From NCBI RefSeq assembly GCF_030384885.1, contig NZ_CP128613.1: DNA of 64,000 nt, one strand, 5' to 3'. Every line of letters begins with the position of its first letter. Position 1 is the first letter of the stretch. The stretch comes from Escherichia coli (GTDB lineage: Bacteria; Pseudomonadota; Gammaproteobacteria; Enterobacterales; Enterobacteriaceae). Shown in pieces: positions 43,296 to 44,446 of this stretch. The position numbers and the translations under genes were made by a program. The notes below the pieces were generated by a model. That model had not been told where the DNA came from, did not search any database, and saw only the letters and a program-made list of their open reading frames with translations.

Positions 43296-43736
43296 ATGAT
43301 GGTAAACAACTTCATATCTCTCCATTGCCTCTCACGAAAGGAACTGGACACACTGATCGAGCACGAATTACAACTGATACTGGCTGAAGGCTTTGACAAG
43401 TCCCCTATTTCCGCCAAGGCCCTGCATATTCGGCTCAAGGCAAAAGGTATCGTTAACGGTGGTTTAAGTACGCTGAGCAGCCTTGAGCGAAAACGCCTAA
43501 TTGCTGCCTATGTTGATCAGCAACTTGGCCCGTTGAATCTACGCCCAAAAGAAAAACAGCAATACGTCAACCGCAAAACCCGTCAGGCCTTGCTGGCCAG
43601 AAACCAGCAGTTGCAGGCGGAAGTCAGTGAACTGCAAGACCAACTGGCGCAGAATACCCTATCGTTGATAGAAATTGTCAAAGCGGTAAAAATCAATACG
43701 GTTATTCCGGTGGAAAGTCTGTTGCCAAACATGTAA
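43296..43736 (+). CDS. Hypothetical coiled-coil protein adjacent to dif
   Basis: 146-aa ORF starting 6 bp after dif; the C-terminal half is heptad-like and Q/L-rich (NRKTRQALLARNQQLQAEVSELQDQLAQNTLSLIEIVKAV). No recognisable family. Confidence 0.45.
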   Translation: MMVNNFISLHCLSRKELDTLIEHELQLILAEGFDKSPISAKALHIRLKAKGIVNGGLSTLSSLERKRLIAAYVDQQLGPLNLRPKEKQQYVNRKTRQALLARNQQLQAEVSELQDQLAQNTLSLIEIVKAVKINTVIPVESLLPNM

Positions 43737-43877
43737 TTCGGGAGTTACACAAGTCGTCATAATGCTGGTTATAATTTTCGGCAAAGGGCATGGACGATTT
43801 CTTTCCGTCATTCTGTATATTGCTTACCTTCCCTAATTTCTCCAACCGTTAGTTGGAGAAATTAGATGAGTCGTAAA

Positions 43878-44072
43878 TCATGAATAAACCCCTTGCTCTA
43901 TTCGAAAAATGAGCATGGCAACTTTCAACACCCCCTCTTCTGAGTCCATTATCTCAGAGGGCGTTTTCCACTGTAATGCTCTGTTTGGTTCATTGCACCA
44001 GTTTAATGCTGCACTTTCGTTACCTTCAAAAAGATCAATAGCCTTTTGAAGAACATCATTTTTTGTCAGCAT
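43878..44072 (-). pseudogene. Possible remnant of an Xre/DUF2384-type antitoxin (C-terminal domain only)
   Basis: 64-aa ORF with the pattern W..EPN.AL.WKTP.E......EG...V...L.RIE.GV, recalled as typical of the DUF2384 antitoxin C-domain. A stop lies immediately upstream in frame and a short out-of-frame ORF (MTEEERSSLIEALKTSS...) overlaps the start, suggesting frameshift decay. No toxin partner found. Confidence 0.35.
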
Positions 44073-44446
44073 GTTTTACACCTGAAGACGTTTTGAGTGC
44101 TTCGATAAGACTACTTCGCTCTTCCTCTGTCATCCGGGATATGAGCAATGCAAGTTCTGCTGTTGTCTGATCATCACAAAAAAAGTAACACAGTGGTGCA
44201 AACATTCAAATAAGAACTCTTATTGAAAAATACAGCAGTGAATTGGAAAAAGTGTCAGGAGCAAAAGAAATTTATGAAGAATTGATAATTCCCGTGCCGA
44301 GCAGAGAAAATGAATTCCGGAAACTTTCTCTTGAGCAAGATAAAAGACATATTAAGATAAATGAAAAAATAAAAACACTGATTAGGATTGGTAATAAAAA
44401 TATTACAATAAGGCAATGAATTTTAAAAAGGATTTGAAGTTTAATA

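What the first reader, a model, noticed from the sequence alone, without database searches (positions are those of the whole stretch)
43296..44210. Orphan coiled-coil ORF and a decayed DUF2384-like antitoxin right beside dif
A 146-aa coiled-coil protein starts 6 bp after dif. Downstream on the other strand is a 64-aa ORF with the W..EPN.AL.WKTP.E...EG...RIE.G signature of the Xre/DUF2384 antitoxin C-domain, preceded by an overlapping out-of-frame ORF and an in-frame stop, a pattern suggestive of a frameshifted gene. No RES- or ParT-type toxin gene is nearby. This could be the scar of an earlier IMEX or TA module at dif.
Basis: inference. Interest (0 to 1): 0.35.

Follow-up and report, generated by a model that had tools for sequence, protein, structure and literature searches.

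The report
Decayed GInt island remnant beside dif
The DNA just right of the chromosome's dif site is the broken front end of a known kind of mobile island (a "GInt"). It has lost its three recombinase genes, the "orphan" ORF is its damaged fourth gene, and the small DUF2384 ORF is an intact, conserved small gene rather than a frameshifted antitoxin.

Summary
The sequence features are real. An exact E. coli dif lies at 43263-43290. A 146-aa ORF starts at 43296. A 64-aa ORF (43878-44072, minus strand) holds a full Pfam PF09722/DUF2384 domain, and a 49-aa ORF overlaps it by 17 nt.

- **The 146-aa ORF is not an orphan.** Its homologues (143-148 aa) are the fourth gene of a four-gene recombination operon: integrase, integrase, a 788-aa protein, then the small protein. 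This is the GInt/ginABCD type.
- **This GInt lineage sits directly against dif.** It does so in Enterobacterales and Acinetobacter. It is flanked by TATGTTAAAT (the end of the dif XerD arm) and TAAGTTAAAT.
- **The window holds a 3.3-kb relic (43291-46614).** About 5.4 kb (ginABC) was deleted, fusing 49 nt of the left end in frame to ginD codon 4. A 1-nt deletion also removed the conserved C-terminus.
- **The DUF2384 ORF is a conserved stand-alone gene.** In intact relatives it overlaps a separate 110-aa HTH controller gene by the same 17 nt. No fused form was found. In the window that HTH gene has lost its 5' 64 codons and its promoter.
- **It is not a Xer-dependent element (IMEX) or a toxin-antitoxin scar.** No RES toxin is present here or in relatives.

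A second GInt relic follows at 46615.

The parts
43263..43290 (+). Chromosomal dif site. Its last 10 nt (TATGTTAAAT, the outer end of the XerD arm) act as attL of the GInt.
   Evidence: Exact match to the E. coli dif sequence used as the search pattern, also exact in E. coli K-12 MG1655, with 0 expected by chance. The same 28-bp site abuts the GInt left end in 15 loci. The attL/attR pair was defined in MB64.
43291..43339 (+). Retained GInt-1 left end (49 nt), including the conserved AACTTCATAT motif at 43308-43317. It supplies the ATG and the first 14 codons of the 146-aa ORF.
   Evidence: Collinear with the left end of the GInt in E. whittamii L022 up to ...CACGAAA, after which L022 continues towards ginA. 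The motif is conserved in the Enterobacterales and Acinetobacter left ends.
43296..43736 (+). 146-aa chimeric ORF, a ginD-like pseudogene. Codons 1-14 come from the left-end non-coding DNA. Codons 15 to about 143 are ginD residues 4-132. The C-terminus is lost through a 1-nt deletion.
   Evidence: tblastn identity of 97.7% to MB64 GinD-like residues 4-132. Alignment A1 shows the nearly invariant G3 and the conserved C-terminal APH(V/L)IRELHK replaced. PGAP marks the identical locus in strain 2013C-4282 as 'frameshifted'. There is no Shine-Dalgarno sequence and no coupling to ginC (sequence).
43338..43340 (+). Junction of the ~5.4-kb internal deletion that removed ginA, ginB, ginC and the first 11 nt of ginD. 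There is a 2-nt (AA) microhomology and the fusion is in frame.
   Evidence: Three-way comparison of the window, the L022 left end and the L022 ginD start. BLAST homology to MB64 ginD starts at 43338.
43737..43762 (+). Out-of-frame remainder of the native ginD 3' end.
   Evidence: The PGAP pseudo-CDS in L001 (6039-6502) maps to window 43299-43762. The MB64 protein ends ...LLAKHVIRELHKSS, whereas the window ORF ends ...LLPNM.
43833..43865 (.). Perfect 14-bp inverted repeat (hairpin) between the convergent ginD' and DUF2384 ORFs. It is probably a transcription stop or an RNA-stabilising element, and it has no T-run.
   Evidence: the repeat finder. Fold energy is -21.6 kcal/mol, z = -5.9. A 12-bp version is present in MB64 and none in Pectobacterium L013.
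43878..44072 (-). Intact 64-aa stand-alone DUF2384 (Xre/MbcA/ParS C-terminal toxin-binding domain) gene. An AGGTG Shine-Dalgarno sequence lies 6 nt upstream of its ATG, inside the upstream gene.
   Evidence: Pfam and NCBIfam matches. Orthologues of 64 aa occur in E. coli, E. whittamii, Enterobacter and Pectobacterium. dN/dS is 0.09-0.12 in most comparisons. PGAP annotates it as an intact CDS.
44056..44205 (-). 49-aa ORF, the 3' remnant (residues 65-110) of the 110-aa HTH_3 'control protein' gene that natively overlaps the DUF2384 gene by 17 nt. Its ATG and first few codons come from unrelated DNA across the deletion junction.
   Evidence: tblastn matches HTH110 residues 65-110 at 44196-44059, 95.7% identity. 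The intact gene is in L002 6721-7053. It matches PADLOC Control_protein at E=5.5e-26.
44187..44187 (.). Junction of a 626-bp deletion relative to the MB64 arrangement. It removed HTH codons 1-64, the divergent promoter region and the 5' part of the divergent 186-aa gene.
   Evidence: Window 44101-44187 aligns to L002 6766-6852, and window 44187-44300 aligns to L002 7479-7592.
44187..44593 (+). 3' remnant of the divergent 186-aa VspR-like regulator gene (the 58-aa ORF at 44243-44419 lies within it).
   Evidence: 82% nucleotide identity to L002 7479-7887. tblastn gives 63.5% identity to the C-terminal part. The N-terminal part of the intact protein is 39% identical to a Pectobacterium VspR_N/VspR_C protein.
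44992..46425 (-). Cargo gene of the relic: a 477-aa leucine-rich-repeat protein (SspH2/SlrP-like LRR). No NEL ubiquitin-ligase domain was detected.
   Evidence: Pfam LRR_4/LRR_8, and NCBIfam PRK15387 matching positions 219-438 only.
46595..46614 (+). GInt-1 right end ATACTCAACATAAGTTAAAT. The attR TAAGTTAAAT (46605-46614) is an imperfect copy of the dif XerD-arm end.
   Evidence: The same terminal CAACATAAGTTAAAT is found at the right ends of the GInts of MB64, E. whittamii, Pectobacterium and Xenorhabdus. In MB64 it is followed by the empty-site K-12 flank.
46615..46815 (.). Start of a second, older GInt relic. Its left end (like that of K. grimontii L031) is fused after about 54 nt to the 5' remnant (residues 1-49, minus strand, 46669-46815) of another HTH110 gene.
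   Evidence: Pattern hit, sequence, comparison with L031, and tblastn matching HTH110 residues 1-49 at 46815-46669 with 95.9% identity.

Best explanation
The finding is the dif-proximal part of a 3.3-kb, non-autonomous relic (window 43291-46614) of a GInt-type genomic island. GInts are classed in the Tn554 family (Tn6488/Tn6571 subfamilies).

Intact members of this lineage insert with their own recombination operon: two tyrosine recombinases, a 788-aa recombinase-like protein and a ~144-aa helical protein. They insert at the outer end of the XerD arm of dif. This regenerates dif on their left and leaves TAAGTTAAAT on their right. They carry variable, often anti-phage, cargo.

Shown here:
- A ~5.4-kb deletion with a 2-nt microhomology removed ginABC and fused 49 nt of the left end in frame to codon 4 of the fourth gene, creating the 146-aa ORF.
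- A 1-nt deletion then cut off its conserved C-terminal helix.
- The 64-aa DUF2384 ORF is an intact copy of a conserved small gene. In intact islands it lies convergent to ginD and is translationally coupled (17-nt overlap, own Shine-Dalgarno sequence and ATG) to a separate 110-aa C-protein-like HTH controller.
- In the window a 626-bp deletion removed that controller's first 64 codons and the shared promoter region.

Inferred:
- The relic can no longer excise by itself.
- The 146-aa ORF is a pseudogene with no function.
- The DUF2384 gene is probably silent here.
- In intact islands the DUF2384 protein most likely acts as a free toxin-binding domain derived from RES-Xre antitoxins. It may neutralise RES-type toxins or modulate the HTH controller. 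This function is untested.
For: Operon context:
- MB64 has hipA, dif, Int (466 aa), Int (516 aa), a 788-aa protein and the 144-aa homologue, followed by DUF2384 (64 aa) and HTH (110 aa) on the minus strand, a hypothetical gene and retron Ec78.
- The same four-gene operon occurs in 4 Pectobacterium loci, in E. coli and Pectobacterium loci L013-L020, and in loci from 35 further species genomes.

Link to curated GInts:
- MB64 proteins 1-3 match, in the same order, ECs_3512, ECs_3511 and ECs_3510 of O157 Sakai at E=8e-17, 2e-6 and 2e-9.
- ECs_3509/ECs_3510 are listed as a ginD/ginC pair in Idola et al. 2023, Additional file 10.

Ends:
- attL is TATGTTAAAT and attR is TAAGTTAAAT followed by the K-12 empty-site flank.
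- The right end CAACATAAGTTAAAT is conserved in 6 or more elements, including window 46595-46614.
- dif abuts the left end in 15 of 15 loci examined, and a XerD arm lies about 5.0-5.5 kb upstream of ginD in 16 loci.

Deletion junctions. Degenerate termini of the ORF: and PGAP's 'frameshifted' flag.

DUF2384 gene:
- Domain matches.
- Conserved 64-aa orthologues with the same overlap geometry.
- dN/dS of 0.09-0.12 across dS of about 0.8.
- Partner HTH relatives are 94-140 aa, none a fusion.
- Of the best 150 representative relatives, 57 are 80 aa or shorter.
- The closest full-length relatives are Xre-like-HTH + DUF2384 proteins, and one is followed by a RES toxin gene at E=8.6e-31.
Against: - The fourth-gene product shows no detectable similarity to the one curated GinD available here, by BLASTP (E=2.1) or hhalign (probability 0.2%). 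Membership of that gene in 'GinD' therefore rests on position, size and predicted helical/coiled-coil structure only.
- No excision or integration was observed; it is inferred from comparative junctions.
- The DUF2384 ORF shows dN/dS of about 1-2 in comparisons with the Pectobacterium and E. whittamii copies, based on small counts. Selection is therefore not uniform.
- The ORF is broken in one Citrobacter locus.
- Expression of either ORF in this strain is unknown.
- The relic keeps both termini, so complete inertness is not proven.
Confidence: 0.85

Rival explanations
1. A single Xre-DUF2384 antitoxin gene was split by a frameshift, its toxin was lost, and an unrelated orphan coiled-coil gene sits next to it. 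Together they are the scar of an IMEX or a toxin-antitoxin module that integrated at dif through XerCD.
For: - The DUF2384 domain covers only the C-terminal half of full-length antitoxin models.
- An overlapping out-of-frame ORF and an upstream stop exist.
- The closest full-length relatives are true RES-Xre antitoxins.
- The location next to dif, with an IMEX prophage on the other side.
Against: - The two-gene arrangement is conserved, with identical geometry, in intact islands of several genera.
- There are 5 stops in the DUF2384 frame upstream of the ATG in the intact locus.
- No fused homologue appears among the 120 best HTH relatives or among the 27 close DUF2384 relatives.
- The neighbour's HTH is HTH_3/C-protein-like, not the PF20432 domain of canonical antitoxins.
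- The two genes occur separately: the DUF2384 gene without a recognisable HTH110 gene in L022 (where only the last ~9 codons of it remain) and L031, and the HTH gene alone in L025, L026 and L030.
- The right junction has only a 9/11 XerD-arm-like half-site and no XerC arm, and relatives encode their own recombinases.
Confidence: 0.04
2. The relic is not inert. It is a miniature, non-autonomous GInt that keeps both termini and can be mobilised in trans by a resident intact GInt. Its DUF2384 gene, and possibly the truncated GinD-like protein, are still expressed and retained for a function such as neutralising RES-type toxins or interfering with incoming GInts.
For: - The left end with the AACTTCATAT motif and the right end CAACATAAGTTAAAT are both intact.
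- The 64-aa ORF is intact, 98% identical to the MB64 copy, and keeps its Shine-Dalgarno sequence (sequence).
- The same junction is present in at least 9 complete E. coli genomes.
- Losses of all or part of ginABC that keep ginD recur independently (A. pollinis L051, E. asburiae L023, fusion protein P0005).
Against: - The native promoter region of the DUF2384 operon is deleted.
- A terminator-like site lies between the upstream LRR gene and the ORF.
- The ginD' ORF has no Shine-Dalgarno sequence and lacks conserved residues at both ends.
- All copies found are at dif, so there is no sign of transposition.
- Sharing of the junction can be explained by vertical descent or by homologous recombination of the dif flank.
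Confidence: 0.1
3. HTH110 and the 64-aa ORF are expressed as one fusion protein by programmed +1 frameshifting at the conserved GAC-AAA-AAA-TGA overlap. The 'split' would then be a regulated way of making a full Xre-DUF2384 antitoxin-like regulator.
For: The overlap sequence, with its A6 run followed by TGA, is conserved in E. coli, Enterobacter, Citrobacter and Pectobacterium (protein ends ...ADKK / MLTKND...). A +1 shift would join the two frames (sequence reasoning).
Against: - The 64-aa ORF has its own ATG with an AGGTG Shine-Dalgarno sequence at optimal spacing, which is typical translational coupling.
- The Shine-Dalgarno sequence is too far from the shift site to act as in prfB (established knowledge of prfB +1 frameshifting).
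- In L022 the 64-aa gene persists although all but the last ~9 codons of the HTH gene are gone.
- No fused orthologue exists in the databases searched.
Confidence: 0.03

Closest known systems
[quoted passage not shown] 2017 (PMC5385486). Classed as Tn6488/Tn6571 subfamilies of the Tn554 family (PMC8865565). Reported as carriers of defence systems in E. coli (PMC10121019).
   Same: - A four-gene operon at the 5' end: two tyrosine recombinases, a recombinase-like protein annotated as hypothetical, and a small helical protein.
- Cargo starts right after the fourth gene.
- A short AT-rich 3' end.
- Imperfect 10-nt direct repeats at the junctions.
- Strict site specificity.
- Defence-system cargo.
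- Truncated gin operons are already described.
   Different: - The target here is the outer end of the XerD arm of dif. None of the GInt papers read mentions dif as a target.
- The fourth protein has no detectable sequence similarity to the curated GinD of O157 Sakai.
- The window copy has lost ginABC and is a relic, not an element.
[quoted passage not shown] 2023 (PMC10214605)
   Same: A four-gene tyrosine-recombinase module with a small coiled-coil auxiliary protein, target specificity and no mobilisation genes.
   Different: The gene order differs: in SEs the recombinase-fold protein is second, whereas here it is third, as in GInts. SE and GInt proteins form separate clusters.
IMEX elements (integrative mobile elements exploiting Xer, e.g. 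CTXphi, TLCphi and filamentous prophages at dif)
   Same: Located at dif. Successive integrations can build arrays beside dif. A true IMEX-like tandem filamentous prophage occupies the other side of the same dif site in this window.
   Different: IMEXs lack their own integrase and recombine within the dif central region using XerCD (established knowledge; PMC4246890, PMC5357621). Here the crossover lies at the outer edge of the XerD arm, the right junction has no XerC arm, and intact relatives encode their own recombinases.
IS1202-family insertion sequences that target dif/pdif (Harmer, Pong and Hall 2023, PMC10132070)
   Same: Mobile elements that use the dif site as a landmark, in one fixed orientation, in both Acinetobacter and Enterobacterales.
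   Different: These are DDE transposons that insert 5 bp from the XerC side with 5-bp target duplications. The GInt lineage here abuts the XerD side and uses tyrosine recombinases.
RES-Xre / MbcTA / ParST type II toxin-antitoxin systems (antitoxins with the PF09722 C-terminal toxin-binding domain)
   Same: The 64-aa ORF is a full PF09722 domain. It is 53-56% identical to the domain of canonical Xre-like-HTH + DUF2384 antitoxins, and one of these is followed by a RES toxin gene.
   Different: There is no fused HTH domain and no adjacent toxin, either in the window or in intact relatives. The neighbouring HTH gene is a separate C-protein-like HTH_3 regulator.

Membership tests
GInt (ginABCD island) | A ginABCD operon at the 5' end: three integrase-like genes plus a small fourth gene. 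| tested here: not met
   In the window only the fourth gene survives, in damaged form, and ginABC are deleted. The feature is met in intact relatives of the same lineage: MB64, Pectobacterium, Enterobacter, Citrobacter, Klebsiella and Acinetobacter. The window locus is therefore filed as a GInt relic, not a GInt.
GInt (ginABCD island) | Sequence homology of the recombinase genes to recognised GInt genes, in the same order. | tested here: met
   The MB64 466-, 516- and 788-aa proteins match O157 Sakai ECs_3512, 3511 and 3510 at E=8e-17, 2e-6 and 2e-9. ECs_3509/3510 are in the published ginD/ginC list. This was tested on the intact relative, not on the window.
GInt (ginABCD island) | The third protein (GinC) is a recombinase-fold protein that lacks typical integrase signatures and is usually annotated as hypothetical. 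| tested here: met
   The 788-aa protein has no Pfam hit and is annotated as hypothetical. It aligns to Sakai GinC. Catalytic residues were not inspected.
GInt (ginABCD island) | The fourth protein is homologous to GinD (small, with a C-terminal helical or coiled-coil region). | tested here: inconclusive
   There is no sequence similarity to Sakai GinD. The position, the size (143-148 aa) and the predicted 40-residue helix agree with the published description. GInt families share only 24-40% identity.
GInt (ginABCD island) | Flanked by imperfect direct repeats of 10-17 nt; site-specific insertion; short AT-rich 3' end. | tested here: met
   TATGTTAAAT and TAAGTTAAAT flank the element. The right end CAACATAAGTTAAAT is present in the window (46595-46614) and in 6 or more relatives. 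The empty site is seen in K-12.
GInt (ginABCD island) | Excision to a circular intermediate and integration that depend on all four genes. | not testable with these tools
   This needs PCR and genetics. It was demonstrated only for the Pseudomonas GInts.
IMEX (Xer-exploiting integrative element) | No recombinase of its own. The attP carries XerC and XerD arms, and both junctions are dif-like sites. | tested here: not met
   Intact relatives encode two tyrosine recombinases plus a related protein. The right junction matches only 9 of 11 positions of the XerD arm and has no XerC arm.
RES-Xre / ParST / MbcTA type II toxin-antitoxin module | The antitoxin carries the PF09722 toxin-binding domain. 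| tested here: met
   PF09722 at E=1e-10 over the full domain.
RES-Xre / ParST / MbcTA type II toxin-antitoxin module | The antitoxin has an N-terminal Xre-like HTH fused to the toxin-binding domain. | tested here: not met
   The 64-aa protein is the domain alone. The orthologues are also 64 aa. The adjacent HTH is a separate HTH_3 gene.
RES-Xre / ParST / MbcTA type II toxin-antitoxin module | A cognate RES or ART (ParT/MbcT) toxin gene lies immediately downstream. | tested here: not met
   Downstream of the 64-aa ORF are only 140 bp and then the convergent ginD'. No RES was found in the window or beside the gene in intact loci. ParT-type toxins were not searched for separately. The rest of the genome could not be searched.

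The most novel reading that the evidence does not exclude
A widespread GInt lineage (Enterobacterales, Acinetobacter, probably Psychrobacter) uses the outer end of the XerD-binding arm of the chromosomal dif site as its attachment site. Each insertion regenerates dif and pushes older islands outward. The XerD side of dif would therefore become an accretion zone of defence and cargo islands and their relics, while Xer-dependent phages pile up through the same site. This target was not found in the GInt or dif literature I could search. The lineage often carries, just past ginD, a conserved stand-alone RES-antitoxin-type toxin-binding domain that may serve as a free anti-toxin (anti-addiction or anti-defence) factor.
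Probability: 0.5. Interest if true: 0.55.

Novelty: new member of a known kind. Interest (0 to 1): 0.35.

Why it matters
The two ORFs in this window are debris and matter little in themselves. The value lies in correct annotation and in what the relic reveals.

**Annotation.** A 'hypothetical/frameshifted' gene and an 'antitoxin family protein' next to dif should be read as the stump of a GInt. They are not a toxin-antitoxin module.

**The lineage.** This GInt lineage consistently abuts the XerD arm of dif. It carries anti-phage cargo (retron Ec78, Gabija-like genes, TIR and AbiJ genes in relatives). It decays in place, leaving stacked relics.

If confirmed experimentally, three things would follow:
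- dif would be added to the short list of GInt targets.
- It would explain why the hipA-ydeT interval, which contains dif, is an integration hotspot for defence islands in E. coli.
- It would raise the question of how insertions that reshape the DNA next to the XerD arm coexist with chromosome-dimer resolution and with Xer-dependent phages using the same site.

Tried and rejected
- **Pfam/NCBIfam on the 146-aa ORF.** No meaningful hit, only a weak FtsB coiled-coil match.
- **Structure of the GinD-like protein.** The model is confident (pLDDT 82.5), but Foldseek against the PDB found nothing (best E=6.3).
- **Comparison of the GinD-like family with O157 Sakai GinD.** No similarity by BLASTP or profile comparison.
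- **Looking up the MB64 protein accessions in the published ginC/ginD list.** Not found. The stored file is truncated, so this is not informative.
- **Search for an intact progenitor with the window's exact left end among 5426 complete E. coli genomes.** Only 9 hits, and all already carry the deletion junction. The progenitor-type left end was instead found in E. whittamii.
- **Search for the K-12 empty-site flank in the window.** Absent, because the outer end of the second relic and part of the flank are deleted.
- **PADLOC on the 64-aa ORF, the GinD-like protein and the VspR-like proteins.** No hits. Only the HTH genes matched regulator models.
- **RES toxin tblastn against the window.** Nothing significant.
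- **The idea that the window is not E. coli,** raised by about 94% identity to MB64 core genes. Rejected: the left flank is 99.98% identical to E. coli 2013C-4282.
- **Distant V. cholerae HTH homologues.** They are not followed by a DUF2384 ORF, so the pairing is not universal for the HTH family.
- **Literature searches for GInt together with dif.** No paper describing this target was found. Absence from the held library is not proof of novelty.
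Full report
**Observation.**

The window carries one exact copy of the E. coli dif site at 43263-43290. A 146-aa ORF starts at 43296, the sixth base after dif, directly after an in-frame TAG.

On the minus strand, a 64-aa ORF (43878-44072) matches Pfam PF09722 (Xre/MbcA/ParS C-terminal toxin-binding domain, formerly DUF2384). The match spans the whole domain at E=1e-10. It also matches only the C-terminal half of NCBIfam's full-length antitoxin models.

A 49-aa ORF (44056-44205) overlaps the 64-aa ORF by 17 nt in another frame, and a stop lies one codon upstream of the 64-aa ORF's ATG.

The window is E. coli. Its left flank (20111-26126, an autotransporter gene plus hipBA) is 99.98% identical to strain 2013C-4282 up to the 14th base of dif.

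**The 146-aa ORF is not an orphan.**

It has 144 detectable homologues, mostly 143-148 aa, in Escherichia, Salmonella, Klebsiella, Enterobacter, Pectobacterium, Dickeya, Serratia, Aeromonas and others. The nearest cluster is on more than 1000 contigs.

In E. coli MB64 the homologue (144 aa) is the last gene of an operon that begins about 150 bp after dif. The operon encodes a 466-aa and a 516-aa tyrosine recombinase, a 788-aa protein without Pfam hits, and the small protein. The same four-gene block occurs in four Pectobacterium loci, in further E. coli and Pectobacterium loci, and in loci from 35 more species genomes, including many Acinetobacter and Psychrobacter.

[quoted passage not shown] Their ginABCD operon sits at the 5' end, followed by cargo and a short AT-rich 3' end (Bardaji et al. 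2017, PMC5385486; Idola et al. 2023, PMC10214605).

As a sequence test, I compared the MB64 proteins with a GInt in the published ginC/ginD list, O157 Sakai ECs_3509-3512.
- Proteins 1, 2 and 3 match their positional counterparts at E=8e-17, 2e-6 and 2e-9.
- The fourth protein shows no similarity by BLASTP or by profile comparison.

Its assignment as 'GinD-like' therefore rests on position, size and predicted structure: a helical N-terminal part, a 40-residue helix at residues 82-121, and two short C-terminal helices. There is no match in the PDB.

**How the ORF in the window arose.**

Right after dif the window reads AGCCTATGATGGTAAACAACTTCATATCTCTCCATTGCCTCTCACGAAA|GGAACTGG. The GInt of Escherichia whittamii (L022) has nearly the same 49 nt after dif but then continues towards ginA. 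Its fourth gene begins ATGCGCGGCAA|GGAACTGG.

The window therefore has a ~5.4-kb deletion with a 2-nt microhomology. The deletion removed ginA, ginB, ginC and the first 11 nt of ginD, and it fused the non-coding left end in frame to codon 4. The ATG-ATG at 43296 and the next 12 codons are left-end DNA.

The alignment of 17 family members shows two defects in the window copy:
- It replaces the conserved N-terminal MRG (G3 is nearly invariant).
- After a 1-nt deletion it ends ...LLPNM instead of the conserved ...LLAPH(V/L)IRELHK.

NCBI's PGAP pipeline flags the identical locus in 2013C-4282 as 'frameshifted'. The ORF has no Shine-Dalgarno sequence and has lost the overlap with ginC that couples translation in intact operons. 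I conclude, by inference, that it is a pseudogene.

The same junction is present in at least 9 complete E. coli genomes, and no E. coli with this left end and an intact operon was found.

**The island lineage abuts dif.**

In MB64 the island is 15.4 kb. On the left, dif ends ...TATGTTAAAT and island DNA follows. On the right, the island ends ...CAACATAAGTTAAAT, followed by exactly the sequence that follows dif in K-12.

The junction repeats TATGTTAAAT/TAAGTTAAAT fit the 10-17-nt imperfect repeats described for GInts. The same right end occurs in E. whittamii, three Pectobacterium loci, Xenorhabdus and the window, at 46595-46614.

The evidence for dif adjacency is as follows:
- In 15 of 15 loci inspected, a full 28-bp dif directly precedes the left end. 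The sites are GGTGCGCATAATGTATATTATGTTAAAT-type in Enterobacterales and ATT(T/G)CG(T/C)ATAATGTATATTATGTTAAAT-type in Acinetobacter. Most carry the TGTATA spacer of the chromosomal dif sites reported in PMC10132070; three have a variant spacer.
- A broader scan finds the XerD arm about 5.0-5.5 kb upstream of ginD in 16 loci, and about 7.7 kb upstream in four Psychrobacter loci.
- The left ends share an (A/T)ACTTCAT(A) motif about 20 nt from dif.

Two observations argue against Xer-mediated (IMEX-type) integration and for the island's own recombinases. The crossover lies at the outer edge of the XerD arm, and the right junction has no XerC arm. This conclusion is inferred, not shown.

None of the GInt papers I could read mentions dif as a target. 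The hipA-ydeT interval that contains dif is listed as integration hotspot #20 for defence islands in E. coli (PMC10121019).

**Extent of the relic in the window.**

GInt-1 runs from 43291 to 46614 (3.3 kb). It contains, in order:
- the left end;
- the ginD' pseudogene;
- a perfect 14-bp hairpin (43833-43865, z=-5.9);
- the 64-aa DUF2384 gene;
- the 3' stump of the HTH gene;
- the 3' stump of a divergent 186-aa gene;
- a 477-aa LRR protein gene;
- the right end.

Immediately after attR, a second left end begins (46615...CATATTGACTGTTAACTTACTTCATGAAC). It resembles the K. grimontii GInt left end. After about 54 nt it is fused to the 5' stump (residues 1-49) of another HTH110 gene, followed by an ankyrin-repeat gene and transposase debris.

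Two GInts therefore inserted successively at dif and both decayed. A Pectobacterium locus (L007) also shows a second left end after attR.

**The DUF2384 ORF.**

In intact islands of E. coli, Enterobacter and Pectobacterium brasiliense, the 64-aa gene lies convergent to ginD. It is preceded by a 110-aa HTH_3 gene whose last 17 nt overlap its start. The coordinates are identical in every case.

Several results show the pair is not a broken fusion:
- The 64-aa gene has its own ATG and an AGGTG Shine-Dalgarno sequence 6 nt upstream.
- In the intact MB64 locus its reading frame has five stops upstream of the ATG.
- I searched with an artificial fusion of the two proteins. The 120 best hits are 94-140 aa HTH-only proteins (most 101-117 aa), and none is a fusion of about 170 aa.
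- All 27 close relatives of the 64-aa ORF are 74 aa or shorter.
- In an exhaustive search of 1.84 billion representatives, 57 of the best 150 relatives are 80 aa or shorter. Domain-only proteins are therefore a recurrent architecture.
- The nearest full-length relatives (53-56% identity) have a different N-terminal domain (PF20432, Xre-like HTH). One of them is followed by an overlapping RES toxin gene at E=8.6e-31.
- The HTH110 neighbour instead matches PADLOC's restriction-modification 'control protein' model at E=5.5e-26, and it also resembles CapH.
- The two genes also occur apart. The 64-aa gene persists in E. whittamii, where only the last ~9 codons of the HTH gene remain, and in K. grimontii. 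The HTH gene occurs alone in two Pectobacterium species and in Enterobacteriaceae LSJC7.

Codon analysis gives dN/dS of 0.09-0.12 across a synonymous divergence of about 0.8 for the 64-aa gene, which indicates purifying selection. Comparisons with the Pectobacterium and E. whittamii copies give ratios near or above 1, on small counts.

**What is decayed in the window.**

A 626-bp deletion at 44187 (MB64 coordinates L002 6853-7478) removed three things:
- the first 64 codons of HTH110;
- the divergent promoter region;
- the 5' part of the divergent 186-aa gene.

That 186-aa gene has an intact N-terminal part that is 39% identical to a Pectobacterium protein with VspR_N/VspR_C domains.

The 49-aa ORF is the HTH stump with a fortuitous start. 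The 64-aa gene is intact (98% identical to the MB64 copy), but it has lost its promoter. A terminator-like hairpin separates it from the upstream LRR gene. It is probably silent, though this is inferred.

**Function.**

For the relic the best-supported statement is that it has none. It cannot excise on its own, and its two ORFs are a pseudogene and a probably unexpressed small gene.

For the intact system, the fourth protein is required for GInt recombination in Pseudomonas. It has been likened to Tn554 TnpC, which stimulates integration and determines its orientation (PMC5385486).

The 64-aa protein is most simply read as a free toxin-binding domain descended from RES-Xre antitoxins. It is co-transcribed with a cargo controller. 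Whether it neutralises RES-type toxins, acts on the controller or does something else is open.

No RES gene is present in the window or beside the gene in intact islands. ParT-type toxins were not searched for separately. The rest of the genome could not be checked.

**Verdict.**

The locus is a new, decayed member of a known kind of element (GInt). It is not an IMEX scar, a toxin-antitoxin module or a frameshifted antitoxin.

Interest in the finding itself is modest. The side result deserves follow-up: a GInt lineage that consistently uses the XerD-arm end of dif and accretes relics there, opposite a tandem Xer-dependent prophage.

Noticed in passing
window 26127-43262: Two tandem copies (period 8575 bp) of a filamentous, Inovirus-type prophage are integrated at dif. 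Each encodes G2P replication protein, G3P-like, DUF5455, Zot/G1P and secretin/G4P proteins; an AbiJ_NTD4+DUF7014 gene was seen at 34786-35715. The left junction keeps the first 14 nt of dif (26113-26126). The dif-proximal part tested (42500-43260) gave no match in 5426 complete E. coli genomes. The sister strain 2013C-4282 has the same flanks without the prophage.
   Followed up: partly
window 46615-~49840: A second GInt relic lies directly after the attR of the first. Its left end is like that of K. grimontii and is fused to the 5' stump of an HTH110 gene. An ankyrin-repeat gene (47118-49082) and transposase debris follow. Its outer end and the K-12-type flank are missing. Pectobacterium L007 (16081 onwards) also has a second left end after attR, so tandem accretion at dif seems common.
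   Followed up: partly
L051 1-700 (Acinetobacter pollinis); L023 8447-10001 (Enterobacter asburiae); protein P0005: These are independent internal deletions, with different junctions, that remove all or part of ginABC but keep ginD. L051 has dif, a short left end and the ginA leader joined to the ginD ATG. L023 has a single 469-aa ORF between dif and ginD. P0005 is a protein with an unidentified 126-aa upstream part joined in frame to ginD; its origin in one of the gin genes was not tested. Loss of the recombinases with retention of the fourth gene recurs; the reason is unknown.
   Followed up: partly
L016-L020 vs L002 (E. coli), HTH110/DUF2384 overlap: There is a recombination breakpoint at the HTH/DUF2384 overlap. 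HTH110 is nearly identical between lineages (dS 0.03), while the adjacent 64-aa gene has dS of about 0.8 and GinD is only 81% identical. The 64-aa gene travels with the gin side and the HTH gene with the cargo side. Cargo swapping seems to happen within or near the HTH gene's 3' end; the breakpoints are at residue 65 in the window and about residue 102 in E. whittamii.
   Followed up: partly
L013 4581-6195 (Pectobacterium brasiliense); L003-L006 4372-5309 (Vibrio cholerae): The HTH110-type gene is repeatedly paired divergently with a VspR_N/VspR_C-domain regulator. In Pectobacterium GInts the regulator is followed by a second, 107-aa DUF2384 protein. In V. cholerae the pair lies in a Tn7-like element next to a type I restriction gene. 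This looks like a portable two-regulator switch at the core/cargo boundary of defence-carrying elements.
   Followed up: no
window 43833-43865: A perfect 14-bp inverted repeat with a 5-nt loop lies between the convergent ginD' and DUF2384 ORFs. Its fold energy is far below that of shuffled controls (z=-5.9). It has no T-run on either side. A 12-bp version is present in MB64 and it is absent in Pectobacterium.
   Followed up: partly
window 44992-46425 (-): A 477-aa protein has SspH2/SlrP/IpaH-type leucine-rich repeats, but no C-terminal NEL ubiquitin-ligase domain was detected. The repeat region differs in copy number from strain 2013C-4282, where the annotated gene is 1707 bp. It is carried as cargo of the GInt relic.
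   Followed up: no
window 43223-43262 and the left flanks of dif in L007-L010 and K-12: The 40 nt to the left of dif are similar between the prophage end in the window, the Pectobacterium loci and the native E. coli hipA-dif spacer (pattern GACC.GCC.GAACG.C.G..TCC). The phage attachment region therefore seems to mimic more than the 28-bp dif core.
   Followed up: no
protein P0001 (179 aa, from public assemblies): In some strains the TAG right after dif is changed. Gene callers then predict a 179-aa ORF that reads through the dif site itself (...VGAHNVYYVKYPMMVNNF...) into the ginD remnant. This is an annotation artefact worth knowing about.
   Followed up: no
L046, L047, L049, L050 (Psychrobacter): A XerD-arm-like ATTATGTTAAAC lies about 7.7 kb upstream of ginD in all four loci, about 2.3 kb further away than in other genera. 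Either an extra segment sits between dif and the operon or the left part of the element is longer. This was not resolved.
   Followed up: no
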